A stretch of 64,000 nt of DNA from a bacterium (lineage in GTDB: Bacteria; Patescibacteriota; Minisyncoccia; Phycocordibacterales; UBA5272): assembly GCA_023267595.1 (NCBI GenBank), contig JAHFNB010000001.1:94590-158589 (forward strand), given 5' to 3'. The position numbers and the translations under genes are program-made. A model generated the notes under the pieces. That model saw nothing but the letters and a program-made list of their open reading frames with translations. It did no database searches and was not told the origin of the DNA. Positions 1,069 to 60,169 of the stretch are shown here, piece after piece. Within the stretch, counting starts at the first letter, position 1; each line of letters begins with the position of its first letter.

Positions 1069-1071
1069 GTA

Positions 1072-10864: not shown

Positions 10865-10986
10865 TGTATAAATCATTGGGCGAACACATTGACTTTTCTA
10901 TATTTTTACTGTATAATAATAAATAGAGGTTGATTAGAAAATTGTTTCTAATCACTAACCAATTCACAAATCTGGACTGGAGGTAT

Positions 10987-11616
10987 ATGATGCTATCCCA
11001 ACGTCAAAAAGATTTTGCCATCATGATGCTTAAGTTGTTGGTTCTGTTGATTCTCATAGGTTTAGTTCTCACTTATTGGTCAGACAACAGTGATCTTAAT
11101 AAAAAAAATGAGATCCTGAAAGCAGATCTTCAAAAAGAAAAAAAGCAGAGCGCAGATCTCGTTGCAGAAAAAAAATATCTCGAGGAGAAGTTGAACAAAA
11201 AACTCGAGATGCCAGTCACACAGGCATGCACCATCAATGACGAAATGAAAAAACTTGTTGCAGATAGTTGTACTGCAAAAAAGCAGGCTCAAGCACCAGC
11301 CTCTGTTGCGCGGAAAAGAGCGGTTTCGATATCGAGGGTCGGGGAAGAAGAACGGATCAAACAAGCCCTTGATCTTGCGAGGTTGAGAGCAGAAGCACAT
11401 AGGGAAGTTGTGCTTGTGAATCCGACACCCTCACGGTCTACTGTAAAAGTTGTACAAGATCACTGTATTTTTCGGGTAGATGGGAGAATCGTCGCTGAAA
11501 AGTTTGTCCCTGAAGGGCAAGGAGCAAGTCAGTGCCCGATCTGGAGGGAAGCAGAAAGAGAAGAAAGAAAATTAAAACAAAAAGACCTGATTTGGGACAA
11601 GAAGTATCCGTCCTGA
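10987..11616 (+). CDS. Membrane-anchored coiled-coil protein (hypothetical)
   Basis: GGAGG RBS at 10979-10983, then ATG at 10987. N-terminal TM FAIMMLKLLVLLILIGLVLTYW. Lys/Glu-rich coiled coil. Cys-containing C-terminal domain. Moderately GC-rich. Confidence 0.55.
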   Translation: MMLSQRQKDFAIMMLKLLVLLILIGLVLTYWSDNSDLNKKNEILKADLQKEKKQSADLVAEKKYLEEKLNKKLEMPVTQACTINDEMKKLVADSCTAKKQAQAPASVARKRAVSISRVGEEERIKQALDLARLRAEAHREVVLVNPTPSRSTVKVVQDHCIFRVDGRIVAEKFVPEGQGASQCPIWREAEREERKLKQKDLIWDKKYPS

Positions 11617-22344: not shown

Positions 22345-22917
22345 TTACAATTTTCCTTTTGCCCGACGACTCGCGACGTATGCTTGAAATTTTGCACGTT
22401 TGCCGAGTATATCGATGATTGGCATGAGGATAGTGAGAATGATGTCGTTTTTGATTTCCGAGAGTCTCGGTATTCCACCAAAACCTTTCGGTGTATGGTG
22501 CATGACATTTTTTCTTCCATCTCGCCAACATATCCAACGGATACGAAGGTAATGCAGTCTGGTCGAGACGAGATGAATTTCCTTCACATGATTCTCTTTC
22601 GCATATTTGAATATCGCGTCGAGTTGTGTGAAGGTATCGATGCCCTCGCGGAGAAGTATGTAGTCCTCTCCTTCCGTGAAGGCATATTTTTCCAAAACGA
22701 TTCGGTACTGCTCAATTTCTGGAAGAGATGAATCTGCATGTTGAAAACCACTTGCAGTCAGAAGTCTAACTACAAGGTTGTTATCGTACTTTGCGGTTGT
22801 ATACAGGCGGATTGCGTACCGAAGTGCGCAGTACCAGTCCTGATCCTCTAGGTAACCAAGACGACCTTCAGGCCATGCGGATTTCGCAAGCGGGACAACA
22901 AGATAGTCAATATTCAA
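22345..22917 (-). CDS. DUF218/YdcF-like protein, GC-richer than flanks
   Basis: LVVPLAKSAW...RYAIRLYTTAKYDNNLVVRLLTASG...IHLVSTRLHYLRI pattern, consistent with DUF218. Confidence 0.55.
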   Translation of the reverse strand: MNIDYLVVPLAKSAWPEGRLGYLEDQDWYCALRYAIRLYTTAKYDNNLVVRLLTASGFQHADSSLPEIEQYRIVLEKYAFTEGEDYILLREGIDTFTQLDAIFKYAKENHVKEIHLVSTRLHYLRIRWICWRDGRKNVMHHTPKGFGGIPRLSEIKNDIILTILMPIIDILGKRAKFQAYVASRRAKGKL

Positions 22918-34772: not shown

Positions 34773-35219
34773 ATGTCATCACAAGAAGTAATTTTCTTCT
34801 ACGAACATGAGTATTATATGTTTTCTAACTTCTCTTCATTTGCTCTAGAGTGGAAAGGAAACGTATGGATGACGAGTGAACATGTCTATCATTCTGAACG
34901 ATTTGATAATGAAGAAATAAAAGAAAAAATAAGGAATATGCGTTCAGCGCACGAAGTATTCAGATTTGCTCAAGATAATAAATATCTCCAAATAAGCAAT
35001 TGGAATGAAATAAAGGTGGAGATTATGAAAGAAATTGTACGAGAAAAAATTGTTCAACATCCATATGTGAAAAAGAAATTGCTAGAGTCTGGCAGTAGAG
35101 AACTGATTGAAGATTCACCTCATGATGATTTCTGGGGATGGGGGAAAAATAAAGATGGAAAAAATCAGTTAGGAAAGATTTGGATGGAATTACGAGAAGA
35201 AATAAAAAAGACTACATGA
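34773..35219 (+). CDS. NADAR-domain protein (YbiA/DUF1768-like)
   Basis: FFYEHEYYMFSNFS...WMTSEHVYHSERF...DDFWGWG matches NADAR family hallmarks. Confidence 0.7.
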   Translation: MSSQEVIFFYEHEYYMFSNFSSFALEWKGNVWMTSEHVYHSERFDNEEIKEKIRNMRSAHEVFRFAQDNKYLQISNWNEIKVEIMKEIVREKIVQHPYVKKKLLESGSRELIEDSPHDDFWGWGKNKDGKNQLGKIWMELREEIKKTT

Positions 35220-35812
35220 AGCATATAAAAATTGGTGTAGATATGGATGAAGTATTGTGTGAACTTTTTCTTAGTCTGACTGACCGTTTCAATACCATTA
35301 ATGGTACATTTCATAATGTGCGTGATATACAACATTATGATTTAGAAAAATTGTATGGATGTACAAAAGAAGAATTAGGAGGGCTTCTGCGAGAGTTTTT
35401 TATCAGTAAAGACCATACAACCATGGTCCCGATTGTTGGAGCATTAGAAGGTATTGAAAAAATTAAAGACTTTGATCTTATTATTATAAGTGCAAGACCA
35501 GAACATACCAGAAATAAAACAGAGGAGTGGCTACATAAACATTTTCCAAATATATTTTCAGATATTCATTTAATTGGCGACCCAAGTGGACTAGGAGGCA
35601 TGGCTTTATCAAAAGGAGAATTTGCAAAAGAACTAGGTATACAAGTTTTTATAGAAGATTCATTAACAAATGCAAAAAATATAGCATCGTACGGTATCCC
35701 AGTTCTCCTTCTTGATAGAACGTGGAATCAAGGGGAGTTACCACCCCTTGTTACACGAGCATTTTCTTGGGAAGAAGCAGTATCTTTTATACAGAAAATG
35801 TTTAGAAAGTAG
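35216..35812 (+). CDS. HAD-superfamily 5'(3')-deoxyribonucleotidase-like protein
   Basis: Begins MKHIKIGVDMDEVLCELF (DxDxV/T motif). Overlaps the NADAR stop by 4 nt (ATGA). Confidence 0.65.
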   Translation: MKHIKIGVDMDEVLCELFLSLTDRFNTINGTFHNVRDIQHYDLEKLYGCTKEELGGLLREFFISKDHTTMVPIVGALEGIEKIKDFDLIIISARPEHTRNKTEEWLHKHFPNIFSDIHLIGDPSGLGGMALSKGEFAKELGIQVFIEDSLTNAKNIASYGIPVLLLDRTWNQGELPPLVTRAFSWEEAVSFIQKMFRK

Positions 35813-41686: not shown

Positions 41687-41839
41687 GTTCTTTCTAGAAA
41701 CAACTTAGCAACAAGGGAAATAAAAGAGCAACATCAATTGATGTTGCTCTTTTATTGACAATACGTAGAGACTCTAGTATAATAGATATATCAATGCCCT
41801 CGGGGGCGTTTTTTAGAATAAACCAAACATATAGTATTT

Positions 41840-42022
41840 ATGAACCTCATTCAATATCTTAAGGAAACACAAGCAGAACTTAAAGAAGTTACATTTCCTA
41901 CTACATCACAAACAGTTATCTATACTGTTGCCGTAGTTCTTATCTCGGTTGTTGTTGCAGTAGTACTCGGCGGACTAGATCTTTCACTTCGTGAAGGACT
42001 CACTCGATTACTTGCTCGTTAA
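41840..42022 (+). CDS. secE: Preprotein translocase subunit SecE
   Basis: 60 aa. YLKETQAELKEVTFPT plus a single TM. Sits upstream of nusG. Confidence 0.8.
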   Translation: MNLIQYLKETQAELKEVTFPTTSQTVIYTVAVVLISVVVAVVLGGLDLSLREGLTRLLAR

Positions 42023-42045: not shown

Positions 42046-42591
42046 ATGGCAAAACAGGAATTTACCGGAGAACGTCATTGGTATGCGATTCATACCTATA
42101 GTGGATATGAAAATGCGGTACAACGTAATTTAAAACAGCGTATAGAATCTCTCGGCATGGAGAATAAGATTTTTGCCGTTGTTGTACCACTTGAAAAGAA
42201 GATTAAAGTAAAAGGGACAAAGCGTGTTGAAGTAGAAGAAAAGATTTACCCTGGGTATGTTCTTGTAGATATGATTGTGGATGATAATAGTTGGTATGTT
42301 GTTCGTAACACTCCTCGTGTTACTGGTTTCGTGGGGGCAGGGACAACTCCAGTGCCACTTACACAAGCAGAAATTGATTTTCTTTTCAGTCGTATGAATA
42401 CTGGTGAAGTAGAACATGATATTAGTATCGCAGTTGGTGAATTAGTAGCAATTACTGATGGACCATTTAAGGATTTTGAAGGAAAAGTAGGAGAAGTAGA
42501 TAAGCAACGTGGAAAGTTAAAAGTGCTTGTAAATATGTTTGGAAGAGAGACTCCAGTTGAACTTGATTTCTTGCAAATCAAGAAAATTTAA
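42046..42591 (+). CDS. nusG: Transcription termination/antitermination factor NusG
   Basis: NGN domain (WYAIHTYSGYENAV). KOW (KVLVNMFGRETPVELDFLQI). Confidence 0.9.
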   Translation: MAKQEFTGERHWYAIHTYSGYENAVQRNLKQRIESLGMENKIFAVVVPLEKKIKVKGTKRVEVEEKIYPGYVLVDMIVDDNSWYVVRNTPRVTGFVGAGTTPVPLTQAEIDFLFSRMNTGEVEHDISIAVGELVAITDGPFKDFEGKVGEVDKQRGKLKVLVNMFGRETPVELDFLQIKKI

Positions 42592-42620: not shown

Positions 42621-43034
42621 ATGGCAGGCAAAAAAGTCACAAAATACGTAAAAGTTCAAATTGAAGCAGGTCGCGCTACTCCTGCTCCTCCACTTGGTCC
42701 TGCACTTGGTCAGGCTGGTGTTCAGATCGGGGACTTCGTTAATAAGTTCAATGCAGCCACAAAAGATATGCAAGGACGTCTTTCAGTAAAGATTTATGTT
42801 TATGAAGATAGAACATATGATTTTGTTATCAAGACTCCAACAGCATCATCACTACTTTGGAAGTTATCAGGTCTTGCAAAAGGGGATTCAAAGAACGGGG
42901 CAGGAACAATTTCAAAAGATAAAGTTCGTGAAATTGCTACTATGAAATTAAAAGATCTTACTGCTCATACTGTTGAACAAGGGATGAAGATTATCGAAGG
43001 ATCTGCACGCTCTGCAGGAATCAAGGTGGTATAA
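42621..43034 (+). CDS. rplK: 50S ribosomal protein L11
   Basis: VKVQIEAGRATPAPPLGPALGQAGVQIGDFVNKFN. Confidence 0.92.
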   Translation: MAGKKVTKYVKVQIEAGRATPAPPLGPALGQAGVQIGDFVNKFNAATKDMQGRLSVKIYVYEDRTYDFVIKTPTASSLLWKLSGLAKGDSKNGAGTISKDKVREIATMKLKDLTAHTVEQGMKIIEGSARSAGIKVV

Positions 43035-43120
43035 ACTAATTAAAAATACTCGCATTCGCGAGTATTTTTAATTTATGATAGGGTAATAGGTGAATGTTCT
43101 AATAATTTTGGAGAAATCCT

Positions 43121-44239
43121 GTGAATAACACTATCGGTGTTTTTAGTCAGAATGATTTAAAGAAGATGGTTGAAAATCGTCGCTTAGTACCATGTGAGGG
43201 ATTTTCTCCCGAACATATTGGTACGGCATCCGTTGATTTGACTTCGACTGGAGAAGCATATCAACTTCGCCGGTTATTTCAACCAAGTCAAATCAAGAGT
43301 GAATCTATTCGCGATCTACTTCCTTTTATGGACCCTGAATCGAAACCCCTTGGGTCTACGCTTGAAGTTGGAAGCACAACAATAACCAAAGCAAGTCTCG
43401 AACCAAACTTTCCGCCGGGTATTTACGGATATCTGAATGCAAAATCAAGTTCTGGTAGGAATTTTCTTTTTGCAAGATCACTTGCAGATGGTCAGAACAT
43501 GTTTGATTCTGCAGATCGCCGTGAAAGGGGGTATTCCGGAGAATTATGGATCGTTATTCAACCATTAGCCTTTCCAGTTATTCTTACCAATAAGGAAAGG
43601 TATGATCAGTTGCGAGTATTTAATGGTGATACGCGATTCAAACAACAAGATCTTGATAATCTTTTGCTCAATCACGATCTTTTGTATCGTAGGGAAACTC
43701 AAGAACCATACAAACACGGTGACCTATCACTGTTTACCCACGATGGTTCCATTCTTTGTACGCTTTATGCACCTGCTCGTGAACTCATTGGGTATCGTTG
43801 TAAAAAAAATACGCCACCGGTTGATCTTACAAGGAGAGATATTGATCCCAGAGATTATTTTGAGCCGGTGTATGCCGAGGAAAAAATAGTCGATGGTAAG
43901 AAAATAAGTTTCGTTAAGGTTGAAGGGGGTTACTATTACCTTCTTTCTACAAACGAAATGATTAAAGTTCCAGAGACACACACTGCAGAATTGGTAGCGC
44001 TTGATACACGGCTTGGGTTTTTCTTTAGTCATTTTGCAGGATTTTTCGATAACGGATTTTTCGGGACCGCAACACTCGAGATTTATTCTCCGTTTACGAT
44101 TTGGCTTCGGCATAAACAACCGGTTGCACGATTTGTTTTTGAAAAACTTCGCTCGGAAGCACCGTCGTATGGTGAAAAAGGGACGTATCAGTCACAGATT
44201 GAAACACAACTCCCTAAGCAATTTCTTCCGTGGGAATGA
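43121..44239 (+). CDS. dcd: 2'-deoxycytidine 5'-triphosphate deaminase (long-form DCD family)
   Basis: GTG start with GGAG RBS. The N-terminal region resembles dCTP deaminase. 372 aa. GC-rich. Confidence 0.6.
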   Translation: MNNTIGVFSQNDLKKMVENRRLVPCEGFSPEHIGTASVDLTSTGEAYQLRRLFQPSQIKSESIRDLLPFMDPESKPLGSTLEVGSTTITKASLEPNFPPGIYGYLNAKSSSGRNFLFARSLADGQNMFDSADRRERGYSGELWIVIQPLAFPVILTNKERYDQLRVFNGDTRFKQQDLDNLLLNHDLLYRRETQEPYKHGDLSLFTHDGSILCTLYAPARELIGYRCKKNTPPVDLTRRDIDPRDYFEPVYAEEKIVDGKKISFVKVEGGYYYLLSTNEMIKVPETHTAELVALDTRLGFFFSHFAGFFDNGFFGTATLEIYSPFTIWLRHKQPVARFVFEKLRSEAPSYGEKGTYQSQIETQLPKQFLPWE

Positions 44240-44289
44240 TTATAGGCAGGACCTCAAGAGTCCTGTTTTCTTTTTGGTATAATGAACAT

Positions 44290-44709
44290 ATGAAATTATT
44301 TGTTAAAAAAATGCGTGATGATGCGAGACTGCCGACACGTGCGCATCACGATGATGCAGGTATTGATTTGTATTCATGTGGTAATCATATTGTTCATCCA
44401 CAACAGACACTTATGATTCCAATTGGAATTGCACTTGAAATAGAAGAAGGTTATGTTGGTTTAATTTGGGATAAATCAAGTATTGGATCAAAAAGTATAA
44501 AAACATTAGGTGGTGTGATAGATGCAGGGTATCGGGGAGAATTAAAAGTAATGGTGCATAATTTAAGTAATGAATCCTACACATTTGAACATGGTCATAA
44601 AGTAGCACAGATAGTAATTCAAAAAGTAGAATTTCCAGACATAGTTGATACAAAAGAATTATCGGATTCAAAACGAGGAACAGGAGGATTTGGAAGTACG
44701 GGGAAATAA
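44290..44709 (+). CDS. dut: dUTP diphosphatase (dUTPase)
   Basis: dUTPase motifs AGIDLYS, GLIWDKSSIG, GVIDAGYRGE and RGTGGFGSTG. Confidence 0.85.
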   Translation: MKLFVKKMRDDARLPTRAHHDDAGIDLYSCGNHIVHPQQTLMIPIGIALEIEEGYVGLIWDKSSIGSKSIKTLGGVIDAGYRGELKVMVHNLSNESYTFEHGHKVAQIVIQKVEFPDIVDTKELSDSKRGTGGFGSTGK

Positions 44710-44742
44710 AAAAGAGGCCATAATGCTTGTAGCCTCTTTTTG
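44708..44742. terminator. Bidirectional terminator between dut and the thyX-like gene
   Basis: aaaagaggc-cataatgcttgta-gcctctttt. Confidence 0.6.
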
Positions 44743-44752
44743 AAGTATCGAA

Positions 44753-45793
44753 CTATTCCTCAAATGCGAGGATGAAATCTACGAGAGCCTCATCACCACG
44801 ACAACCAATAAGCAGTTCCTCTCGTGAGATGAGTTTTGTGAAGTCATCTTCTGAAGGGAGTGTTTTTCGGTATTGTGTCCACACTTCGGAATAGTTACCA
44901 TTACTTCCAATAGGATCACTTTCTTCACGTGGGCGTGCTGGGTGTTCGAATGGGGACATATGGCCACTTGCTTGCAAATCGTTCGCCAGACTAACATCCT
45001 TGTCAAGTGCACGAATACCATCATGAGTTAGATAACTGGTCCGTGCACATTTTCCAGAAGAGGCTCTGGCCAAAACTAACTGGTCTTTTTCTTCTGCCTT
45101 GTCTTCTTCTCGAATGTATGGGAGATGCCATTCTCCTTTAGAAAGTTTTATAGGAGAACTGTTCATCATTGCACGTGCAATTGCAATACCGAAGTCTTGT
45201 GCTTCTGGTTGAGCCTTTGCACTCGGGCGGAGACCGAAAAAATTTCTCCAGTACGACGAAGTCACAATGACGACGTGAAAGGCGTATGTTTCCAAAACAC
45301 GATTTGCATGCTGCTTATGGAGTCCTTGGTCTTGAGATGAAAAAAACTGACCCATACCATATTTTTTTACCATCTCTTCAAGTTCTGCACAGAGTTTCTC
45401 TGCGGCCGGATTTTTTTTTGAATCCTTCAGGATCTGATCATATCCGCCGACGAGGAACATTGCTTGAATCACAGCAATATCTCTTCCGGTTAACCAGTTG
45501 GCAACTGCTTTTTTCTTGTCATTATCGGAAAGTTCCAGTTCAGCCTGCATCCCTGCCTTGTTCACTCCGAAGGAGTGAGGAATATAGGGATTTTTCAAGA
45601 CAGAAAGCAAACGTTTCCAGACAGGAATTGCACGCGAACTCGCAGAATTTCTTGCGAATTTTCTGTGTGTATTGAATTCGGCAAGATAGGGCCGAGGAAA
45701 TTCGACCTCGACAGAAGTCAAGCGAGATCTTTTATAGGAACTGTCGCAGATGATGCGAGCAGAGGCTTTCCCTTCAGTGTGAAGTTCTTGCAT
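44753..45793 (-). CDS. thyX: Flavin-dependent thymidylate synthase ThyX-like protein (atypical motif order)
   Basis: THRKFARNSASSRAI approximates RHRxxSxNxxSxRY. AQPEAQDFGIAIARAMM approximates AQxEIRxxA. A HMSPFEH motif occurs near the C-terminus rather than the N-terminus. ATG at 45793 has an AGGAG RBS. The track ORF starts at TTG 45808. Confidence 0.55.
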   Translation of the reverse strand: MQELHTEGKASARIICDSSYKRSRLTSVEVEFPRPYLAEFNTHRKFARNSASSRAIPVWKRLLSVLKNPYIPHSFGVNKAGMQAELELSDNDKKKAVANWLTGRDIAVIQAMFLVGGYDQILKDSKKNPAAEKLCAELEEMVKKYGMGQFFSSQDQGLHKQHANRVLETYAFHVVIVTSSYWRNFFGLRPSAKAQPEAQDFGIAIARAMMNSSPIKLSKGEWHLPYIREEDKAEEKDQLVLARASSGKCARTSYLTHDGIRALDKDVSLANDLQASGHMSPFEHPARPREESDPIGSNGNYSEVWTQYRKTLPSEDDFTKLISREELLIGCRGDEALVDFILAFEE

Positions 45794-45952
45794 GATTACT
45801 CCTAACAATTGGTTATTAAAAGGACTGTAGTATTAGAAACAACTTCTCAAACTCTACATGAAAACATAATGATAAGCAAATCTTGTCAAAAGTTACTTTT
45901 ATTTGTATTTGTAGTACGATATCTTGTGTAGAAGTTCATTCAATTAAGGGGA

Positions 45953-46540
45953 ATGATCATGTCCGCAAGACTTGCACCGTTTATTGTTTTTTGTGGAATT
46001 GATGGTTGTGGAAAGACATCAGCCATCAAAGCAGTAGGGGAGAAATTTCCCACGGTAGATACTACACGAGAACCAGGAGGTACTCCTCTTGCAGAAAATA
46101 TCCGCAACTTACTCTTATCAGAAAAAGGAGGGATACTTTCTCCTTTAGAGCAAATGCACCTTTTCTTTGCGGGGCGTCACATTCATATTCATGAAAGGAT
46201 TCTTCCAAAAAGAAAGAGTGGCATTCCAGTAGTTTCTGATCGTTTTGATGGAAGTACATTCGCTTTTCAACGTTGCCTTAGTTTGGTTGCAGAGAAAATA
46301 GAAATTAACCAACCACTGTACGAAGAATTTTTCCGTTTGCGTGAACAAGTAGTACATCATTGTGAACCTTCTCTTTATATCTATTTAGAAGTTGATCCGG
46401 TAATTGGAATGAGAAGGCGCGCTTTTGCACGTGAACAAGAACTTAATCATTTTGATTTGGCGAATATCGAAGAACAAAAACGCCGAGCAGTTTCGTACCG
46501 TACCTTTTTTAAACATATACGTACGCGGGGTATCTCGTGA
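45953..46540 (+). CDS. tmk: Thymidylate kinase
   Basis: FIVFCGIDGCGKTSAIKAV P-loop. TREPGGTPLAENIR. Confidence 0.75.
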   Translation: MIMSARLAPFIVFCGIDGCGKTSAIKAVGEKFPTVDTTREPGGTPLAENIRNLLLSEKGGILSPLEQMHLFFAGRHIHIHERILPKRKSGIPVVSDRFDGSTFAFQRCLSLVAEKIEINQPLYEEFFRLREQVVHHCEPSLYIYLEVDPVIGMRRRAFAREQELNHFDLANIEEQKRRAVSYRTFFKHIRTRGIS

Positions 46541-46640
46541 GTTGTTTCTATAGATGCAAACAGAAGTAAGGAACTTGTTTTTTCAGATGTTCTTACTACT
46601 GTTGATGAAGAGTTAAGAAACGTCTAGCACTCTTCCAACA

Positions 46641-46670
46641 AAAAGCCGTCACAAAGCGGCTTTTCTTTTT
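46641..46670. terminator. Rho-independent terminator
   Basis: aaaagccg-tcacaaag-cggctttt followed by cttttt. Confidence 0.55.
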
Positions 46671-46700
46671 ATTCATTCATAAATAAGGTAGTATAGAGGG

Positions 46701-48425
46701 ATGAATAAAGGTAGTCTTTCTGAGAGGTTAAGAGGAATTGTTATAGAAGGCCTCTTATCTATTGGTATTAAGGACGCACAAGAGATTTCTTTTTCTCTTG
46801 ATCAACCAGAAGATGTTGTACATGGTGAATACGCAACAAATGTTGCACTTGTTGTTGCAAAAACATTACAAATATCTCCACGTGAATGTGCAGAAAAGTT
46901 AATCACATATATTGAACACAATAAAGGTGAGATAATTTCGCGTGTAGAAATCGCGGGAGTTGGATTCATCAATTTTTTTGTAACAGAGTCTGCAAAAAAA
47001 GAACACATAGAATATGTGGCACACAATGAAGTACAACTCTCTATACTATCTGGTAAAACAGTTATTTGTGAATATACGGATCCAAATCCTTTTAAACTTT
47101 TCCATATCGGTCATACCGTTTCAAATACAGTTGGTGAATCATTGTCACGCATCTATGAAATAGTCGGTGCAAAGGTTATACGTGTATGTTATCAGGGAGA
47201 CATAGGTATGCATGTTGCGACAACTATGTGGGGGATAGAACATATGGGAGAAACTGTAGATGATAGTGCATCTCTTCGTGATAAAGTAACGTATCTTGGA
47301 AAAGGATATGCGTATGGTACACAACAATTAGAAGAGAATCCTTTGATTAAAGAAGAAATACAAACCATCAACAAACATCTCTTTGAAGGAAAAGAACATG
47401 AGATGTACGAGAAAGGAAAGAAGTGGAGTTTAGATTATTTTCAAACTGTTTATGAAAAGTTAGGAACTGCATTTGACTATTTCATTATGGAAAGTGAAGT
47501 TGGAGACAAAGGAAAACAAATTGTTATTGAAAATACACCAAAAGTTTTCGAACAAAGTGATGGCGCATATGTATACAAAGGTGAAAAGGTAGGATTACAT
47601 ACTCGTGTGTTTATTAATTCACAAGGGTTTCCAACCTATGAAGCAAAAGAATTAGGTAACTGTGCACGTAAAGAAGAATTGGTGCCGAATACCGATATTT
47701 CTGTTGTGGTAACTGCACATGAGGTGGACGAATATTTTAAAGTGATACAATCTGCACTTAAAGAAATTAATGAAGTACAAGCACAAAAATTAGTTCATAT
47801 TTCTCACGGAATGTTACGTCTCCCAGAAGGGAAGATGTCGTCACGCACAGGGAATATTATTTCTGCCGAAGATTTACTTGATGAAGTGAAAGAAAGAATA
47901 CAAGATAGATTAGAAAAAAGTGACTTGCCTGCCGGCGAGGCAGGTGCAGACAGTAAAGAACAACTTGCAAATGATATTGCAGTTGGATCAATTAAGTTTT
48001 CAATACTTCGTCAAGCAATTGGTCGCGATATTATTTTTGATATCGATAAATCCATTTCATTTGAAGGAGATTCAGGTCCATATTTACAATATACCCATGC
48101 ACGTATAGTTCAGTTATTAAAAAAAGCAGAAGATTTGGGAATAGCAGGAGCCTATCATAATGATGTTAACGAAGTAGTTCTTTCACGTAAACTGTTAATC
48201 TTTAAAGATGTATTACAAAAAGTTTATGATGATAAAGGTCCACACCATATGGTGAGTTATCTTATTTCACTTGCTCACGAGTTTAATTCTTTATATGGAA
48301 GACAGATTATCGTACATAAAGAAGATCCACACAGTCCTCATTATGTAGTACTTGCATCTGCGGTTGGAAATATTTTGAAGCAAGGACTCTACCTTCTAGG
48401 TATCGTTGCTCCAGATAAGATGTAA
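46701..48425 (+). CDS. argS: Arginyl-tRNA synthetase
   Basis: N-terminal Arg-tRNA-synt_N-like domain. HIGH region PNPFKLFHIGHTVSNTVGESL. C-terminal DALR anticodon-binding-like domain. Confidence 0.88.
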   Translation: MNKGSLSERLRGIVIEGLLSIGIKDAQEISFSLDQPEDVVHGEYATNVALVVAKTLQISPRECAEKLITYIEHNKGEIISRVEIAGVGFINFFVTESAKKEHIEYVAHNEVQLSILSGKTVICEYTDPNPFKLFHIGHTVSNTVGESLSRIYEIVGAKVIRVCYQGDIGMHVATTMWGIEHMGETVDDSASLRDKVTYLGKGYAYGTQQLEENPLIKEEIQTINKHLFEGKEHEMYEKGKKWSLDYFQTVYEKLGTAFDYFIMESEVGDKGKQIVIENTPKVFEQSDGAYVYKGEKVGLHTRVFINSQGFPTYEAKELGNCARKEELVPNTDISVVVTAHEVDEYFKVIQSALKEINEVQAQKLVHISHGMLRLPEGKMSSRTGNIISAEDLLDEVKERIQDRLEKSDLPAGEAGADSKEQLANDIAVGSIKFSILRQAIGRDIIFDIDKSISFEGDSGPYLQYTHARIVQLLKKAEDLGIAGAYHNDVNEVVLSRKLLIFKDVLQKVYDDKGPHHMVSYLISLAHEFNSLYGRQIIVHKEDPHSPHYVVLASAVGNILKQGLYLLGIVAPDKM

Positions 48426-48462: not shown

Positions 48463-51400
48463 ATGTCAGAGTCTAAGAATGTACCAAAGAGTATCAATGA
48501 AAAAGAGTTAGAAACACTTGCTTTTTGGCAGGAACATACAATATTTGAAAAGTCAGTAGAGACTCCTGCAGGTGATGTACCAAAAGGTAGTTTTTCTTTT
48601 TATGATGGTCCTCCATTTGCAACAGGGCTTCCTCATCATGGAACACTTATGGCAGGTACGGTAAAGGATATTATTCCGCGATATCAAACAATGAAAGGAA
48701 ATAGTGTTCGTCGTAAGTGGGGGTGGGATTGTCATGGTCTTCCAATAGAAAATCTAATTGAGAAGAAATTAGGATTAAAGAGTAAAAAAGATATTGAAGA
48801 CTTGGGTATTGCTACGTTTAATAAACATGCACAAGACAGTGTTCTTCAGTATGAATCAGAATGGAAAGAAATAATTCCTCGATCTGGAAGATTTGTCGAT
48901 ATGGATCATGATTATAAAACAATGGATGCAACATATACCGAGAGTGTATGGTGGGCATGGAAAACATTATACGAAAAAGGACTTGCCTACGAAGGATATA
49001 AAATGATGCATATTTGTCCACGTTGTGAGACCACACTTGCACAATCAGAAGTAGGAATGAACTACGAAGATGTTACTGATTTATCAGTAACTGCAAAGTT
49101 TGAACTTACTGATGAACCACAGACATTTGTTCTTGCATGGACAACAACACCGTGGACTCTTCCGGGGAATACGGCACTTGCTCTTTCACAAGATGCAGAG
49201 TACCTAAAAATAAGAGTAGGTGGAATGGAAGGAATGTATATTCTCGCGAAAGAAAGAATTGCTGATGTTCTTCAAGAAAAAAATTATGAAGTTATAGATA
49301 CGTTTAAGGGTTCGAAACTTATTGGTAAGTCATATAAACCAGTATTTCCATATTTTATTAATACAGAGATTGATAATAAAGAAAATATTTGGAAAATATG
49401 GCATGCAGATTTTATTACCCTAGATACAGGGACAGGTATTGCACACGAGGCACCCGCATTTGGTGCAGATGACATGGAACTCGCAAAGCAACATTCTATT
49501 CCTGTGATCAAGCATGTGCTTATGGATGGAACATTTACACACGATGTTACTGATTTTGTTGGCATGAAGGTAAAAAAAGTCGGAGATACGCAATCTGCTG
49601 ATATTGAAATCATTAAATATCTCGCACACAGTGGATCCTTATTTGAAAAACATAAAATAGTTCATTCCTATCCACTGTGTTGGCGATGTAAAACACCACT
49701 TCTTAATTATGCAACGTCGAGTTGGTTCATTGATGTGCCAAAAATGAAACCAACATTATTATCTGAGAATCAAAAAATAGGTTGGACTCCAGAACATATT
49801 CGTGATGGTAGATTTGGTAAATGGCTAGAAGGGGCACGTGAATGGGCAGTATCTCGTACTCGTTACTGGGGAGCGCCACTTCCTGTATGGAAAAATAAAG
49901 ATGGTGAATTGCTCGTTATCGGTTCTCTTAAAGAACTTGCAGAAAAAAATAAACAAAAAGTAAAGAATATATACTTTGTAATGCGTCATGGAGAAGCAGA
50001 GAGTAATGTAAAAGGTATTATTGATAGTAGTGGAGACACGACTAATGGGCTTACAGAAAAAGGCAAAGAACAAGTACGTACAGAAATAAAAAATCTTTCT
50101 CAGAAAATTGATCTTATTATCTCGTCTCCATTTTTACGTGCACAAGAAACAGCAGAGATTGTACGACAAGAATTGGGAGATGTTCAAATTATAGTTGATG
50201 AGAGATTGAAAGAGTTTCAATTAGGTATTTTCGACAAAAAACCAATAGAAGAATATTATAAAGTATTTTCCTCAATCACCTTAGATACGGTAATTACAGG
50301 AGGTGAAACTCATCGTGATATGTTCACACGTGCAATGTCAGTATGGAATGATTTGGAAAAGAAATATGAAGGAAAAAATATTCTGATAGTAACACATGGT
50401 GGTCCAGCATGGATGTTAACTGTCGGTACATCACTGATCACTGATGAAGCAATTAATGAATCAATGAAACATCTTGGTACTGGAAATTGGGTTCCAAATG
50501 CAAAGATTATCCCTCTAGAACCCCTCATTGTTCCACGAGATGAGACTGGAAACATAAATCTTCATCGTCCATACATTGATGAAGTAGAACTAGAAGTTGA
50601 TGGTGTTACATATACAAGAATTCCTGATGTGTTTGATTGTTGGTATGAGTCAGGTGCTATGCCATTTGCATCTCTTCATTATCCATTTGAAAATAAAGAT
50701 ATTTTCGATAAAAATTATCCAGCAGATTTTATTGCGGAAAGTATGGATCAAACACGAGGATGGTTTTATTCACTTATAAACTTAGGGGTAGGGCTATTTG
50801 ATAAAGCACCGTACAAACACGTTATTGTAAATGGGCTTATCAATGCAGCAGATGGGAAAAAGATTAGTAAAAGTTTAAATAACTATACTGATCCATTAGA
50901 ATTAATTGCAAAGTATGGAGCAGATGCATTTCGTCTTTACCTCATGTCTAGTTCTGTAGTAAAAGGAGAAAGTGTTAATTTTAAAGATGAGGATCTCGAT
51001 GGTGTTTACAAACGTTGTATTCTTAGACTAGAGAATGTTATGTCTCTCTACGAAATGAATAAACCAGAATCTGTGATACCACTATCTTCTTCAGATCATA
51101 TTCTTGATATGTGGATTATAAGTAGGCTTCATGAAGTTATTCAAGAGGCAACGCATGGATTTGATACGTATATGCTCGATGATGCAGTACGACCGTTTGA
51201 TCAGTTTATTGATGATGTTTCTGTTTGGTATATACGACGTTCACGTGAACGATTAAAAGGGGACTCTGGAGAAGAAGATCAAAGGATGGCCTACGGGACT
51301 CTCACTTACATATTACAAACGTTTGCAAAGACTATTGCACCAGTTATGCCATTTATTGCAGAGCGTCTTTACAAGCAATCAGGAGGAGAAAAAGAGTCTG

Positions 51401-51903
51401 TTCATCTCGAAAAATGGCCAAGTATAGGAGAGATTCATGAAGGTATACTTGCGGAAATGAAAATGGTTCGTGATGTAGTTTCACTTGGACTCATGAAGCG
51501 AACAGAAGTAAAGATAAATGTGAAACAACCGCTACTTTCTATTATGCTTAAACAAGATATTAATCCTAAGTATTTTGACGTTATCAAAGATGAATTGAAT
51601 GTAAAAAATGTTTTTATTCACGCCTCACAATCAGATGAAGTTAAACTTGATACCACAATAACTGAAGCATTACAAAAAGAGGGAGATATTCGCAAACTTA
51701 TTCGTGCTATACAAGATGCACGAAAAGAAAAAGGATTATTGCCACAAGATAGTATTGTGTTAACCTTATCTTCTGTTAGTGGTCTTGGGAATATTTCATT
51801 ACTTATTGCTACATGTAAAATCTCTGAAACAAGAGAAGATGCAAGTATTAAAGATAATTCGGTAGAATTATCTTCTGGAATTATATATTTTTCTATTGTC
51901 TAA
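48463..51903 (+). CDS. ileS: Isoleucyl-tRNA synthetase with an embedded histidine-phosphatase (PGAM-like) domain
   Basis: IleRS signatures PFATGLPHHGT, WTTTPWTLPGN and KISKS. The residue 502-687 segment carries RHGEAESN, SPFLRAQET and IVTHGG phosphatase motifs, in-frame. Confidence 0.85.
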   Translation: MSESKNVPKSINEKELETLAFWQEHTIFEKSVETPAGDVPKGSFSFYDGPPFATGLPHHGTLMAGTVKDIIPRYQTMKGNSVRRKWGWDCHGLPIENLIEKKLGLKSKKDIEDLGIATFNKHAQDSVLQYESEWKEIIPRSGRFVDMDHDYKTMDATYTESVWWAWKTLYEKGLAYEGYKMMHICPRCETTLAQSEVGMNYEDVTDLSVTAKFELTDEPQTFVLAWTTTPWTLPGNTALALSQDAEYLKIRVGGMEGMYILAKERIADVLQEKNYEVIDTFKGSKLIGKSYKPVFPYFINTEIDNKENIWKIWHADFITLDTGTGIAHEAPAFGADDMELAKQHSIPVIKHVLMDGTFTHDVTDFVGMKVKKVGDTQSADIEIIKYLAHSGSLFEKHKIVHSYPLCWRCKTPLLNYATSSWFIDVPKMKPTLLSENQKIGWTPEHIRDGRFGKWLEGAREWAVSRTRYWGAPLPVWKNKDGELLVIGSLKELAEKNKQKVKNIYFVMRHGEAESNVKGIIDSSGDTTNGLTEKGKEQVRTEIKNLSQKIDLIISSPFLRAQETAEIVRQELGDVQIIVDERLKEFQLGIFDKKPIEEYYKVFSSITLDTVITGGETHRDMFTRAMSVWNDLEKKYEGKNILIVTHGGPAWMLTVGTSLITDEAINESMKHLGTGNWVPNAKIIPLEPLIVPRDETGNINLHRPYIDEVELEVDGVTYTRIPDVFDCWYESGAMPFASLHYPFENKDIFDKNYPADFIAESMDQTRGWFYSLINLGVGLFDKAPYKHVIVNGLINAADGKKISKSLNNYTDPLELIAKYGADAFRLYLMSSSVVKGESVNFKDEDLDGVYKRCILRLENVMSLYEMNKPESVIPLSSSDHILDMWIISRLHEVIQEATHGFDTYMLDDAVRPFDQFIDDVSVWYIRRSRERLKGDSGEEDQRMAYGTLTYILQTFAKTIAPVMPFIAERLYKQSGGEKESVHLEKWPSIGEIHEGILAEMKMVRDVVSLGLMKRTEVKINVKQPLLSIMLKQDINPKYFDVIKDELNVKNVFIHASQSDEVKLDTTITEALQKEGDIRKLIRAIQDARKEKGLLPQDSIVLTLSSVSGLGNISLLIATCKISETREDASIKDNSVELSSGIIYFSIV

Positions 51904-57800: not shown

Positions 57801-58175
57801 ATGTACATCGAAAAAGAAATCGGACCAACAAGAATTTGTTGTTTTGATGCAGTTCTTGCCGAGATAGAGAAAGTAGACGCCGATTTTCCTTGCCATATTG
57901 CCACATTTCTTGGTGATCAAGGAAAGAAGCCTTTCGTTTTTGGTAAAGACGACGAGGTACTCCCACTCCTTTCGCCGGCGAAAGGAAAAGAAGTTTTCTG
58001 TATTTTCATCGGGATTGATGATACCCCAATGAGACTGTATGCTCTTTTCGTGGAGCCGAAAGAATTGGACGTCTCGCAAATATCGACGGCAATCATTGTC
58101 GAAGCATTCTCTGACGAGATGTTCGAAGACTTTCCACCGACGTACAGAATCAGGGAGTCATTTTTCCCCGATTAA
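57801..58175 (+). CDS. Hypothetical protein (124 aa), GC-richer than flanks
   Basis: GGAGAGGAGA RBS before the ATG. Followed by a terminator hairpin. The antisense track ORF 57726-58079 is judged spurious. Confidence 0.5.
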   Translation: MYIEKEIGPTRICCFDAVLAEIEKVDADFPCHIATFLGDQGKKPFVFGKDDEVLPLLSPAKGKEVFCIFIGIDDTPMRLYALFVEPKELDVSQISTAIIVEAFSDEMFEDFPPTYRIRESFFPD

Positions 58176-59551: not shown

Positions 59552-60169
59552 ATGTCACAACCATCACATCCAAAAAAAGATCAAACATTTGTCATTATAA
59601 AACCAGATGGTGTACAACGCTCTTTGGTAGGAGAAGTTATTAAACGCTTTGAACGTGTAGGACTTAAATTGGTGGCAATGAAATTAGTAGTTCCTACAGA
59701 AGATCAATGTTGGACCCACTATAAAAAAGATGATGAATGGTTCATTCGAAAAGGGACAGGTATTATGGAGAATAAAAAGAAATTGGGAATGGTTGTCGAT
59801 AAAGAACCAATTGAATATGGTAAAGATATTATTCGTGCAATTGTAAACTACATGACTGCAGGACCGGTGGTGTGTATGGTATGGGAAGGTAACCAATCAG
59901 TTGCAGTTGTTAAAAAATTAGTTGGAGGTACTGAACCTACAACATCAGATGTAGGAACAATACGCGGAGATTTTACTATTGATTCTTATTATTTGTGTGA
60001 TGTTGATGATTCACGAGGAATGAGGAATCTTATTCATTGTACAGATGGTGATCAAGCAGAAGCAAAACGTGAAATTGATATTTGGTTTAAACCAGAAGAA
60101 CTTATATCATATCGTCTTGTTCAAGAAGAAATACTCTATGATGTAAATCTTGACGGTATTTTAGAATAA
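59552..60169 (+). CDS. ndk: Nucleoside diphosphate kinase
   Basis: TFVIIKPDGVQRSLVGEVIKRFERVGLKLVAMK. NLIHCTDG (active-site His). Longer than typical, at 205 aa. Confidence 0.85.
   Translation: MSQPSHPKKDQTFVIIKPDGVQRSLVGEVIKRFERVGLKLVAMKLVVPTEDQCWTHYKKDDEWFIRKGTGIMENKKKLGMVVDKEPIEYGKDIIRAIVNYMTAGPVVCMVWEGNQSVAVVKKLVGGTEPTTSDVGTIRGDFTIDSYYLCDVDDSRGMRNLIHCTDGDQAEAKREIDIWFKPEELISYRLVQEEILYDVNLDGILE

What the first reader, a model, noticed from the sequence alone, without database searches (positions are those of the whole stretch)
43100..46680. GC-rich dCTP-to-dTDP thymidylate module (dcd-dut / thyX-like / tmk) inserted directly after rplK where rplA would normally be
Right after rplK the sequence composition switches visibly from AT-rich to GC-rich. 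This is a compositional island.

The stretch encodes a coherent pathway:
- a long-form dCTP deaminase (GTG start, GGAG RBS);
- a dUTPase with all five dUTPase motifs;
- a convergent ThyX-like flavin thymidylate synthase;
- a thymidylate kinase.

Together with ndk at 59.5 kb this gives dCTP -> dUTP -> dUMP -> dTMP -> dTDP -> dTTP. The secE-nusG-rplK order is canonical, but no rplA (L1) follows anywhere in the window. Such modules are typical of phage and HGT cargo, and CPR bacteria usually lack de novo nucleotide synthesis. Acquisition inside a ribosomal operon is notable.
Basis: partly seen in the sequence, partly recalled or inferred. Interest (0 to 1): 0.7.

Follow-up and report, generated by a model that had tools for sequence, protein, structure and literature searches.

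The report
Conserved thymidylate gene cluster beside rplK
The four thymidine-nucleotide genes after rplK are real, but they are a conserved feature of a group of tiny Parcubacteria already known to lack ribosomal protein L1, not a recently inserted foreign island; the one unusual part is a rearranged form of the ThyX enzyme.

Summary
All four genes exist and hit the named families: a two-domain dCTP deaminase, dUTPase, a divergent ThyX-like flavin thymidylate synthase on the opposite strand, and thymidylate kinase. They follow secE-nusG-rplK. No rplA is in the window, and ndk is at 59.5 kb.

The "GC-rich island" is weak. The region is 40.2% GC against 36.5% for the window, and only dcd and thyX are raised; dut is native.

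The insertion reading fails:
- The same rplK-module-argS-ileS order recurs in at least nine related Parcubacteria loci, down to about 40% ArgS identity. None has rplA.
- In eight Saccharibacteria-like loci the same ThyX type sits directly after rplA, before rplJ-rplL.
- The nearest relatives of Dcd, ThyX and Tmk that carry a source name are all CPR bacteria. Phage ThyX relatives reach at most 37% identity, and phages have no long Dcd.
- L1 loss in this clade (OD1-L1) is published.

Genes inside the module are nevertheless replaced in place. The closest relative carries classical ThyA and an unrelated Tmk in the same slots.

Side finding: this ThyX family is non-collinear with canonical ThyX, like a circular permutation. 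It is large, with 1,372 clusters at E≤1e-30 that include phage proteins.

The parts
41755..41783 (+). Perfect sigma-70 consensus promoter-like site (TTGACA-17-TATAAT) upstream of secE
   Evidence: 12 of 12 matches. A consensus match only; function is not shown.
41840..42022 (+). secE
   Evidence: PF00584, 55.3 bits.
42046..42591 (+). nusG
   Evidence: PF02357, 95.5 bits, plus KOW.
42621..43034 (+). rplK (ribosomal protein L11)
   Evidence: PF03946 and PF00298.
43038..43073 (+). Perfect 16+16 nt hairpin with an A-run before it and a U-run after it. A terminator-like element between rplK and dcd.
   Evidence: Sequence. Folding gives dG -18.6 kcal/mol, z -7.8, with 0 of 200 shuffles as stable. 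Inverted repeat I4 is 100% complementary.
43121..44239 (+). Long (two-domain) dCTP deaminase, 372 aa. GTG start with a GGAG ribosome-binding site.
   Evidence: DCD_N, DCD and DCD_C match. NF005734 scores 163.6 bits, below its 283 cut-off. PDB 2r9q matches at 8.9e-25 over residues 4-352. Homologues of 81% to 41% identity that carry a source name are all CPR.
44244..44268 (+). Weak terminator-like hairpin after dcd, followed by a TATAAT box before dut
   Evidence: dG -10.7 kcal/mol, z only -1.9.
44290..44709 (+). dut (trimeric dUTPase), 139 aa from the ATG. The longest ORF starts at GTG 44230.
   Evidence: PF00692, 99.8 bits. TIGR00576, 137.9 bits against a 102.55 cut-off. The 139-aa length matches the orthologue in L001. 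GC3 is 0.16, native composition.
44709..44741 (.). Hairpin flanked by A- and T-runs between the convergent dut and thyX genes; a candidate bidirectional terminator
   Evidence: Sequence. dG -13.7 kcal/mol, z -4.5.
44753..45793 (-). ThyX-like flavin-dependent thymidylate synthase, 346 aa (351 aa from the upstream TTG at 45808). It is a non-collinear, permuted variant of the ThyX domain.
45959..46540 (+). tmk (dTMP kinase), 193 aa
   Evidence: PF02223, 82.8 bits. TIGR00041, 98.6 bits against an 83.25 cut-off. The start is as called in the source contig. The nearest relatives, 50-64% identical, appear to lie on the same contigs as ThyX-like genes, judged from matching contig lengths and confirmed for two contigs.
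46641..46664 (+). Terminator-like hairpin after tmk, before argS
   Evidence: dG -11.4 kcal/mol, z -6.5.
46701..48425 (+). argS, the conserved downstream neighbour of the module
   Evidence: Pfam domains in the identical contig L009. Synteny in L001, L012, L003, L014, L007, L092, L094 and L095.
48463..51903 (+). ileS with an inserted His_Phos_1 domain; a conserved neighbour
   Evidence: Precomputed Pfam hits in L009, L001, L003 and L094.
59552..60169 (+). ndk (nucleoside-diphosphate kinase), the last step dTDP -> dTTP. It is 13 kb away and not part of the cluster.
   Evidence: PF00334, 129.7 bits in two stretches. NCBIfam NDK models give about 130 bits, below their cut-offs.

Best explanation
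This is the native, lineage-typical thymidylate-synthesis gene cluster of an L1-less Parcubacterium (the 'OD1-L1' type of CPR bacterium).

Predicted pathway (all steps inferred from family membership):
- The two-domain Dcd deaminates dCTP to dUTP.
- Dut hydrolyses dUTP to dUMP.
- The ThyX-like flavoenzyme methylates dUMP to dTMP, using methylene-tetrahydrofolate and reduced flavin.
- Tmk makes dTDP, and the distant Ndk makes dTTP.

Position and history:
- The cluster sits next to secE-nusG-rplK because thymidylate genes have long been linked to the rplK-rplA-rplJ-rplL neighbourhood in CPR bacteria.
- In this clade rplA was lost, which leaves rplK abutting the module. The order of these events is inferred.
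- The module was therefore not inserted in place of rplA.

Transcription: the module is probably transcribed separately from rplK. A strong hairpin follows rplK, and each gene boundary carries its own hairpin.

Gene turnover:
- The locus is stable, but its individual genes turn over by replacement in place.
- Examples are ThyX versus ThyA, three types of Tmk, long versus short Dcd, and Dut or GlyA present or absent.
- This turnover may explain why dcd and thyX are somewhat GC-richer than their neighbours.
For: Family assignments.

Conserved synteny without L1, ordered by housekeeping-protein identity to the window:
- L092: NusG 94%, L11 93%, ArgS 80%.
- L001 and L012: NusG 93-94%, ArgS 52-56%.
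- L095, L094, L007, L003/L004 and L014: ArgS 38-47%.
- All have rplK directly followed by dcd, thyX and tmk in some order, then argS (and ileS where the locus reaches it).

Deep linkage: eight loci (L005, titled Saccharibacteria, plus L039, L040, L044, L046, L068, L073, L075) have the same ThyX type immediately after rplA. Where the contig extends far enough, rplJ-rplL follow it.

Vertical signal between the window and L092: Dcd is 80% and Dut 84% identical, matching ArgS at 80%.

Nearest homologues:
- Among the closest hits, those that carry a source name are all CPR; most are unnamed.
- Phage ThyX relatives are at most 37% identical, and no phage has a long-Dcd homologue.

Function of the ThyX-like protein: in L092 the same slot, in the same orientation, holds a bona fide ThyA (NF002497, 439.6 bits against a 327 cut-off). 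This is a natural functional substitution.

Separate transcription: hairpins.

No mobility signatures.

Literature:
- The OD1-L1 group is defined by absence of rpL1 (PMC5220378).
- dTMP synthesis belongs to the minimal Patescibacteria repertoire, and HGT of thyA into Patescibacteria has been reported (PMC12455944).
- A Dcd clade consists mostly of CPR bacteria (PMC10733785).
Against: Composition:
- The region is compositionally raised (+1.9 sd; thyX GC3 z +2.0).
- dcd and thyX are GC3-richer than their flanks in every AT-rich relative as well: L001 0.64 and 0.56 against about 0.3, and similarly in L012, L094, L095 and L092.
- This could mean recurrent transfer rather than simple vertical descent.

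Discordant divergence:
- ThyX identities are nearly star-like, 65-70% to relatives whose ArgS ranges from 38% to 56%.
- Dcd relationships partly disagree with the housekeeping genes. L095 Dcd is 71% identical but ArgS only 41%. L001 and L012 share 42% Dcd identity but 60% ArgS identity.

Limits of what was tested:
- Absence of rplA was shown only for the 64-kb window and for +/-10 kb of the relatives, not for a whole genome.
- No enzyme activity was tested.
- The ThyX motif is degenerate, and the protein falls below the NCBIfam equivalog cut-off.
Confidence: 0.8

Rival explanations
1. One reading: the whole 3.6-kb stretch is a recently acquired compositional island of phage or non-CPR origin. 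It would have been inserted into the ribosomal-protein operon at the place of rplA.
For: - GC is modestly raised: 40.2% against 36.5%.
- thyX GC3 is at z +2.0.
- The ThyX type is shared with more than 1,000 phage records and matches PHROG_85 strongly.
- N4-like phages also pair a dcd with this ThyX type.
Against: - The same locus architecture occurs in at least nine diverged Parcubacteria loci, none with rplA.
- dut has native composition.
- Dcd and Dut diverge in step with ArgS in the closest relative.
- Phage ThyX relatives are at most 37% identical, against 52-72% for the 120 closest database homologues; those with a source name are CPR.
- The long Dcd has no phage homologue.
- There are no att repeats, tRNA or integrase.
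- L1 loss is a known clade trait (PMC5220378).
Confidence: 0.04
2. The locus is old, but this genome's own thyX (perhaps together with tmk, and perhaps dcd) is a replacement allele. It would have come by transfer from another, GC-richer Parcubacterium, recombining into the conserved slot. The raised GC3 would then be an incompletely ameliorated transfer signal. This refines the best explanation rather than opposing it.
For: - Replacement in place is demonstrated between the window and its closest relative L092. ThyX is swapped for ThyA, and Tmk is only 36% identical, while ArgS, Dcd and Dut are 80-84% identical.
- There are three Tmk types in one slot.
- L001 and L012 share 42% Dcd identity but 60% ArgS identity.
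- The ThyX identity matrix is star-like.
- thyX and dcd GC3 exceed their flanks in all AT-rich relatives but not in the GC-rich ones, L003 and L014.
- HGT of thyA into Patescibacteria has been reported (PMC12455944).
Against: - The window's thyX-plus-tmk pairing and convergent orientation recur in L094 and L095, and on several short contigs, at 50-70% identity. The window state therefore looks ancestral and L092 derived.
- A consistently raised GC3 across many lineages can also come from gene-specific codon or amino-acid constraints.
- No proper tree reconciliation was done.
Confidence: 0.3
3. The ThyX-like protein is not a thymidylate synthase. It would be another flavin-dependent pyrimidine-modifying enzyme, for example a UMP/dUMP methylase like PolB or a maker of a modified base, so the 'pathway' would be incomplete.
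For: - The ThyX motif is degenerate: T-H-R...S-S-R instead of R-H-R...S-x-R. Position 49 is not conserved in the family.
- It scores below the NCBIfam thyX cut-off (38.7 against 87.9).
- Its topology is non-collinear.
- The family is abundant in phages, which often modify bases.
Against: - It always sits among dcd, dut, tmk and often glyA.
- No other thymidylate synthase is in the cluster.
- In the closest relative the slot is filled by a classical ThyA.
- Counterparts of most ThyX active-site residues are invariant in the family alignment A1 (50 CPR-type homologues at least 51% identical to the window protein): H53, H79, S88, R90, N169, R174, Q180 and E182, plus an R80-like Arg in the relocated segment. 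Most of them are also invariant in the alignment with the phage protein.
Confidence: 0.1

Closest known systems
Canonical flavin-dependent thymidylate synthase ThyX (Thermotoga maritima TM0449, PDB 1O26/1KQ4; Pfam PF02511)
   Same: - Counterparts of H53, H79, S88, R90, N169, R174, Q180 and E182 are conserved.
- Same genomic company: dcd, dut, tmk and glyA.
   Different: - 346 aa instead of about 220.
- The segment equivalent to Tm residues about 5-59 (helices alpha1 and alpha2 and the GH53xxPFEH motif) lies after the core, at residues about 232-290, instead of near the N-terminus.
- A second, degenerate 'W-x-Q-Y-R-K' copy of the WFRHR motif follows it.
- The first Arg of RHR is Thr.
- It scores below the NCBIfam thyX cut-off.
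Thymidylate synthases of N4-like and other phages (PHROG_85; e.g. Klebsiella phage KP8 AVJ48951.1, annotated FAD-dependent thymidylate synthase)
   Same: - Same rearranged architecture and the same invariant motifs: TH..SSR, WHLPY, CAR.SY, H.SP.EH and W.QYRK.
- Strong profile match, 2.7e-47.
- A dcd gene lies close by in KP8.
   Different: - Only 32-37% identical, against 52-72% for the CPR-type homologues.
- The phage dcd is the short form.
- The phage proteins lack the helical insert of about 40 residues (window residues about 122-163) and the C-terminal tail.
Two-domain 2'-deoxycytidine 5'-triphosphate deaminase (Agrobacterium PDB 2R9Q; Pfam PF06559 + PF22569; NCBIfam NF005734)
   Same: - Full-length collinear match (8.9e-25, residues 4-352) and the same two-domain layout.
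- The KSSxGR motif is in the N-terminal half, and the catalytic-type 'TLEI' Glu is in the C-terminal half.
   Different: - Scores 163.6 bits, below the 283-bit equivalog cut-off.
- Belongs to a subfamily whose named members are all CPR, 81% to 41% identical, well separated from the hits at about 30-37%.
OD1-L1 Parcubacteria, the group lacking ribosomal protein L1 (Brown et al. 2015, as cited in PMC5220378)
   Same: - rplK is not followed by rplA, and no L1 is detectable in the window or in ten related loci.
- Relatives are named Parcubacteria, Paceibacterota or Zambryskibacteria.
   Different: Membership of this particular genome in OD1-L1 was not established by phylogeny, and the whole genome could not be searched.
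Non-orthologous displacement of ThyA and ThyX (their known, mostly mutually exclusive, patchy distribution; PMC10733785)
   Same: Two close relatives (ArgS 80% identical) carry ThyX or ThyA respectively.
   Different: Here the swap is seen in exactly the same slot and orientation of an otherwise collinear locus, together with a change of the adjacent tmk.
Canonical bacterial secE-nusG-rplK-rplA-rplJ-rplL-rpoB-rpoC cluster (E. coli; textbook knowledge)
   Same: The secE-nusG-rplK order and orientation are kept.
   Different: - rplA, rplJ and rplL are absent from the window.
- A terminator-like hairpin follows rplK, and then come the thymidylate genes, argS and ileS.

Membership tests
ThyX (flavin-dependent thymidylate synthase, PF02511 / TIGR02170) | Profile match above the curated cut-off | tested here: inconclusive
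   Pfam Thy1 scores 33.1 bits against a 24.8 cut-off, which passes. NCBIfam equivalog TIGR02170 scores 38.7 against 87.9, which fails.
ThyX (flavin-dependent thymidylate synthase, PF02511 / TIGR02170) | ThyX motif R-H-R-x-x-S-x-x-x-x-S-x-R | tested here: not met
   The sequence reads T47-H48-R49-K-F-A-R-N-S-A-S57-S58-R59. The first Arg and the first Ser are replaced, and position 49 is not conserved in the family. H48, S57, S58 and R59 are invariant.
ThyX (flavin-dependent thymidylate synthase, PF02511 / TIGR02170) | ThyX fold | tested here: met
   [not shown]
ThyX (flavin-dependent thymidylate synthase, PF02511 / TIGR02170) | Collinear single-domain topology | tested here: not met
   hhalign gives two non-collinear hits: query 9-241 to Tm 17-219, and query 232-339 to Tm 5-112. 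Moving residues 224-289 to the front raises the Pfam score from 33.2 to 48.6 bits and yields one stretch covering profile positions 14-190. The same holds for a Saccharibacteria homologue, 64.4 to 79.5 bits.
ThyX (flavin-dependent thymidylate synthase, PF02511 / TIGR02170) | FAD-, NADPH- and CH2H4folate-dependent conversion of dUMP to dTMP | not testable with these tools
   Only indirect evidence: the gene neighbourhood, and ThyA occupying the same slot in L092.
Two-domain dCTP deaminase (PF06559 + PF22569; NF005734) | Both the N- and C-terminal DCD domains present, full length | tested here: met
   DCD_N scores 71.4 against 21.4, and DCD_C 82.9 against 22. The match to 2r9q covers residues 4-352.
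Two-domain dCTP deaminase (PF06559 + PF22569; NF005734) | NCBIfam equivalog cut-off | tested here: not met
   163.6 bits against a 283 cut-off. It is a divergent subfamily whose named members are all CPR.
Two-domain dCTP deaminase (PF06559 + PF22569; NF005734) | Catalytic Glu and nucleotide-binding Ser/Arg motif | tested here: met
   'TATLEIYS' aligns to the 'ITLEIV' Glu of M. jannaschii DCD-DUT, and 'KSSSGR' aligns to 'KSSTGR' of 2r9q. This is sequence-level evidence only.
Trimeric dUTPase (PF00692 / TIGR00576) | Profile match above cut-off, and the five dUTPase motifs | tested here: met
   PF00692 scores 99.8 and TIGR00576 scores 137.9 against 102.55. Read from the translation: AGIDLYS, DKSSIG (Lys where Arg is usual), GVIDAGYRGE, KVAQIVI and RGTGGFGSTGK.
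dTMP kinase (PF02223 / TIGR00041) | Profile match above cut-off, and a P-loop | tested here: met
   TIGR00041 scores 98.6 against 83.25. The P-loop is GIDGCGKTS.
Horizontally acquired genomic island or phage cargo | Clear compositional deviation across the whole element | tested here: inconclusive
   +1.9 sd overall, with 5.75% of same-size windows as high. Only dcd and thyX are raised, and dut is below the mean.
Horizontally acquired genomic island or phage cargo | Absent from the same locus in related genomes | tested here: not met
   Present at rplK in L092, L095, L094, L001, L012, L007, L003/L004 and L014.
Horizontally acquired genomic island or phage cargo | Mobility hallmarks: integrase, a tRNA target, flanking direct repeats | tested here: not met
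   The nearest tRNA is at 30.8 kb. Only chance-level repeats of 14 nt or less flank the region. All ORFs in the region are accounted for by the four enzymes.
Horizontally acquired genomic island or phage cargo | Nearest homologues lie outside the host lineage | tested here: not met
   The top hits that carry a source name are Parcubacteria, Paceibacterota or other CPR; most top hits are unnamed. Phage ThyX relatives are at most 37% identical, and no phage has a long Dcd.
OD1-L1 (L1-less Parcubacteria) | No ribosomal protein L1 gene | tested here: inconclusive
   No L1 is found in the 64-kb window or in the related loci, using a query that detects L1 at 46-52% identity in other CPR loci. The complete genome was not available.
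OD1-L1 (L1-less Parcubacteria) | Phylogenetic placement inside the group | not tested
   The only evidence is the source names of homologues (Parcubacteria, Zambryskibacteria, Paceibacterota). There is no rRNA in the window.

The most novel reading that the evidence does not exclude
The ThyX-like protein would represent a very large, so far undescribed clade of circularly permuted ThyX enzymes (or partial tandem-duplication remnants).
- The clade has at least 1,372 50%-identity clusters at E<=1e-30.
- It is shared by CPR bacteria and by more than 1,000 sequenced phages, including N4-like phages.
- The flavin/folate-site segment (helices alpha1 and alpha2 with the His53 motif) is supplied from the C-terminal side of the core.

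In addition, thymidylate genes would be anciently embedded in the rplK-rplA-rplJ-rplL neighbourhood of CPR bacteria, where they undergo swapping of analogous genes (ThyX/ThyA) in place.
Probability: 0.45. Interest if true: 0.5.

Novelty: new member of a known kind. Interest (0 to 1): 0.33.

Why it matters
As flagged, the finding would have implied foreign DNA breaking into a core ribosomal-protein operon of a CPR bacterium. It does not.
- The arrangement is inherited and typical for L1-less Parcubacteria.
- It shows that even these minimal genomes keep a complete dCTP-to-dTDP route.

Three points may be of use to specialists:
- There is a clean natural example of ThyX being exchanged for ThyA, and Tmk for another Tmk, at one fixed chromosomal slot between close relatives.
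- Thymidylate genes are linked to the rplKAJL neighbourhood across two CPR lineages.
- The ThyX used by CPR bacteria and by many phages is a rearranged form. Standard models barely recognise it, which can lead pathway reconstructions to score thymidylate synthesis as missing.

Tried and rejected
- The genome-contig scan with the single ThyX protein returned only 2 loci, because the peptide patterns were too specific. The scan could not be repeated, so organism names for most relatives are missing.
- Rfam found only the seven tRNAs. There is no ribosomal leader or other RNA near the module.
- The consensus terminator scan missed the strongest hairpin, the one after rplK. It was found by reading the sequence and folding it.
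- A repeat search found no att-like direct repeats bounding the module.
- Brown et al. 2015 (doi 10.1038/nature14486) is not held in the library. The OD1-L1 statement is therefore cited second-hand from PMC5220378.
- Two literature searches for a permuted ThyX and a check of the two candidate papers found nothing relevant. This is weak evidence that it is undescribed.
- Exact-sequence look-up of the 351-aa ThyX ORF failed, because the public gene call starts at the downstream ATG.
- I asked whether the strongest GC outlier, 9991-10821, is an island. It encodes a Gly/Val/Gln-rich secreted-type protein, so amino-acid composition explains its GC.
- I considered a bifunctional dCTP deaminase-dUTPase for the long Dcd. 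This is not needed here, because a separate dut follows, but it was not excluded.

Full report
**What is there.**
- ORF listing and profile searches confirm secE (41840-42022), nusG (42046-42591) and rplK (42621-43034).
- They are followed by a 372-aa two-domain dCTP deaminase (43121-44239), a dUTPase (to 44709), a ThyX-like gene on the minus strand (from 44753) and a dTMP kinase (to 46540).
- After these come argS and ileS.
- Reading the junctions refines the starts. dcd starts at GTG 43121, with GGAG 7 nt upstream. dut most likely starts at ATG 44290 (139 aa, as in relative L001). thyX starts at ATG 45793 behind AGGAG (346 aa). tmk starts at ATG 45959.
- ndk at 59552-60169 is confirmed.
The L1 query was validated by its 2.8e-67 hit to a Saccharibacteria locus. 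None of the three finds anything in the window at E<=10.

**Composition.**
- The region is 40.2% GC. Windows of the same size average 36.5% (sd 1.9%), and 5.75% of them are at least as GC-rich.
- Third-position GC per gene is 0.31 for dcd, 0.16 for dut, 0.38 for thyX and 0.27 for tmk. The window's genes average 0.24 (sd 0.07).
- So there is a real but modest and patchy rise, carried by dcd and thyX. It is not a coherent island, and 'GC-rich' overstates it.
- The strongest outlier in the window, 9991-10821 at 52.9% GC, encodes a glycine-rich secreted-type protein.

**Is it an insertion?** No. Homologues of the ThyX-like protein on long contigs were fetched with their flanks. They were then scanned with the window's own proteins and with E. 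coli L1, L10 and L12.
- Parcubacteria-type loci have rplK directly followed by the thymidylate genes, then argS (and ileS where the locus extends that far). These are L092, L001, L012, L095, L094, L007, L003/L004 and L014, plus a thyX-argS fragment, L015.
- Their housekeeping identity to the window ranges from NusG 94% and ArgS 80% down to NusG 67-69% and ArgS 38-40%.
- Order and content vary. Examples are dcd-dut-thyX-tmk; thyX-tmk-dcd-glyA; and a short dcd plus a deoxyribosyltransferase in L007.
- None of these loci has L1.
- Eight further loci carry the same ThyX type immediately downstream of rplA. They are L005, whose record title says Saccharibacteria, and L039, L040, L044, L046, L068, L073 and L075. 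Where the contig is long enough, rplJ-rplL follow it. In L005 a short dcd also follows.
- The simplest reading, which is an inference, is this. Thymidylate genes have long been embedded in the rplK-rplA-rplJ-rplL neighbourhood of CPR bacteria. In this Parcubacteria clade rplA was lost, leaving rplK next to the module.
- Lack of L1 is the published defining trait of the OD1-L1 group (PMC5220378, citing Brown et al. 2015).
- dTMP synthesis is described as part of the minimal Patescibacteria gene repertoire (PMC12455944).

**Origin of the genes.**
- The 120 best database homologues of ThyX are 52-72% identical. For Dcd the identities run 81% to 41% before dropping to about 30-37%. Tmk has a nearest group at 50-64%. 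Most of these proteins are unnamed metagenome sequences. Those that carry a source name are Parcubacteria, Paceibacterota, Zambryskibacteria, Gracilibacteria or Patescibacteria.
- The long Dcd has no phage homologue at E<=1e-5.
- The ThyX type does occur in 1,034 phage records and matches PHROG_85 at 2.7e-47, but at only 32-37% identity.
- Between the window and its closest relative L092, Dcd (80%) and Dut (84%) have diverged as much as ArgS (80%). This fits vertical descent.
- No tRNA, integrase or bounding repeat is present.

**Replacement inside a stable locus.**
- In L092 the minus-strand slot between dut and tmk holds a classical ThyA, not ThyX (NF002497, 439.6 bits against a 327 cut-off).
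- The adjacent Tmk in L092 is only 36% identical to the window's.
- L001 and L012 carry a third, PRK07933-like Tmk.
- The window's thyX-plus-tmk pairing and convergent orientation recur in L094 and L095. L092 therefore looks like the derived state.
- Dcd relationships partly disagree with the housekeeping genes, and ThyX identities are nearly star-like.
- dcd and thyX, and thyA in L092, have higher GC3 than their flanks in all AT-rich relatives. This is not so in the GC-rich relatives L003 and L014.
- Whether this reflects recurrent intra-CPR transfer or gene-specific constraint is unresolved.
- The ThyA substitution is the best available evidence that the ThyX-like protein really supplies dTMP.

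**Transcription (inferred).**
- A perfect sigma-70 consensus precedes secE.
- A perfect 16+16 nt hairpin with flanking A- and U-runs follows rplK (43038-43073; dG -18.6 kcal/mol, z -7.8).
- Further hairpins lie between the convergent dut and thyX genes (z -4.5) and after tmk (z -6.5). A weak one follows dcd.
- The module is therefore probably not read through from the ribosomal genes.

**The ThyX-like protein.**
- It passes Pfam Thy1 only narrowly and fails the NCBIfam equivalog cut-off.
- An AlphaFold2 model built from 50 homologues is confident, with pLDDT 90.8.
- Sequence comparisons show why. The core aligns to T. maritima ThyX residues 17-219, with the alpha1/alpha2-'GH53ETPFEH' segment missing near the N-terminus.
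- Residues 232-339 align separately to Tm 5-112. Here 'GH283MSPFEH' matches the His53 motif, and 'W310-T-Q-Y-R314-K' matches 'W76-F-R-H-R80-I'.
Only the two stretches printed (Tm residues about 24-60 and 106-199) could be checked against a tool result.
- As a direct test, residues 224-289 were moved in front of residue 29. This converts the Pfam match from two stretches (33.2 bits, profile 61-190) into one stretch (48.6 bits, profile 14-190). The Saccharibacteria homologue behaves the same way, 64.4 to 79.5 bits.
- The arrangement looks like the remnant of a tandem ThyX duplication, that is, a circular-permutation-like variant.
- Counterparts of H53, H79, S88, R90, N169, R174, Q180 and E182 are invariant in the 50-sequence family alignment. 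Most of them are also invariant in the five-sequence alignment that includes the N4-like phage KP8 protein. The first Arg of the RHR motif is not conserved.
- The family is large: 4,874 representatives of 50%-identity clusters at E<=1e-3, and 1,372 at E<=1e-30.
- Two full-text searches found no description of a permuted ThyX. This is weak evidence of novelty.

**Verdict.**
The headline interpretation of a GC-rich HGT or phage island inserted in place of rplA is not supported.
- The locus is an inherited, clade-typical arrangement in L1-less Parcubacteria, with turnover at the level of single genes.
- It is of modest interest. The rearranged ThyX and the ThyX/ThyA swap in place are the parts worth a follow-up.

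Noticed in passing
window 44753-45793 (-); also L005 9962-10873 and L093 2995-3936: The ThyX-like protein is non-collinear with canonical ThyX. The N-terminal alpha1/alpha2-His53 segment sits after the core, followed by a degenerate second RHR-like motif. The same architecture occurs in Saccharibacteria and in N4-like phage proteins. The family is large, with 1,372 clusters at E<=1e-30.
   Followed up: yes
L092 10834-11787 (-) and 11944-12579 (+): In the closest relative (ArgS 80%, L11 93%) the thyX slot holds a classical ThyA, and the neighbouring Tmk is only 36% identical. This is replacement of analogous genes in place within a collinear locus.
   Followed up: yes
L005 8001-14374; also L039, L040, L044, L046, L068, L073, L075: In Saccharibacteria-like contigs the same ThyX type lies directly after rplA and before rplJ-rplL. 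In L005 a short dcd follows it. Thymidylate genes are thus embedded in the rplKAJL neighbourhood in a second CPR lineage.
   Followed up: partly
window 48463-51903 (+): The isoleucyl-tRNA synthetase (1,146 aa) carries an inserted histidine-phosphatase (His_Phos_1) domain in the middle of the catalytic domain. The insert is conserved in relatives L001, L003, L009 and L094.
   Followed up: no
L001, L012, L094, L095, L092 (dcd and thyX/thyA genes): dcd and the thymidylate synthase gene have GC3 0.1-0.3 above their flanking genes in every AT-rich relative, but not in the GC-rich relatives L003 and L014. The cause is unresolved: recurrent transfer or gene-specific constraint.
   Followed up: partly
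window 9991-10821 (+) and 10930-11616 (+): These are the strongest compositional outliers of the window (52.9% and 41.8% GC) and have no Pfam match. The first encodes a Gly/Val/Gln-rich protein with a signal-peptide-like N-terminus, which explains much of its GC.
   Followed up: partly
window 211-2397 (+): dnaA (cut at the window start) and dnaN lie at the start of the window, and cumulative GC skew rises across all 64 kb. The window probably begins near the replication origin, and nearly all genes are co-oriented with replication. thyX is one of the few on the other strand.
   Followed up: no
window 59552-60169 (+): The NDK is 205 aa and matches the NDK profile in two stretches. This suggests an insertion within the domain. 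It scores below the NCBIfam NDK cut-offs.
   Followed up: no
window 34773-35812 (+): A NADAR-domain protein and an NT5C-type deoxypyrimidine 5'-nucleotidase lie 8 kb upstream. They are additional nucleotide-salvage functions near the module.
   Followed up: no
L003 1372-2605; L094 18634-20032: The relatives carry gene pairs typical of diversity-generating retroelements (bAvd plus a reverse transcriptase) near this locus. In L094 the pair sits between ileS and recO, which are adjacent in the window.
   Followed up: no
window 57801-58175 (+) and 22345-22917 (-): Two further small ORFs have GC3 0.44 (z +2.8). The first has no Pfam match, and the second has a sub-threshold DUF218 match.
   Followed up: no
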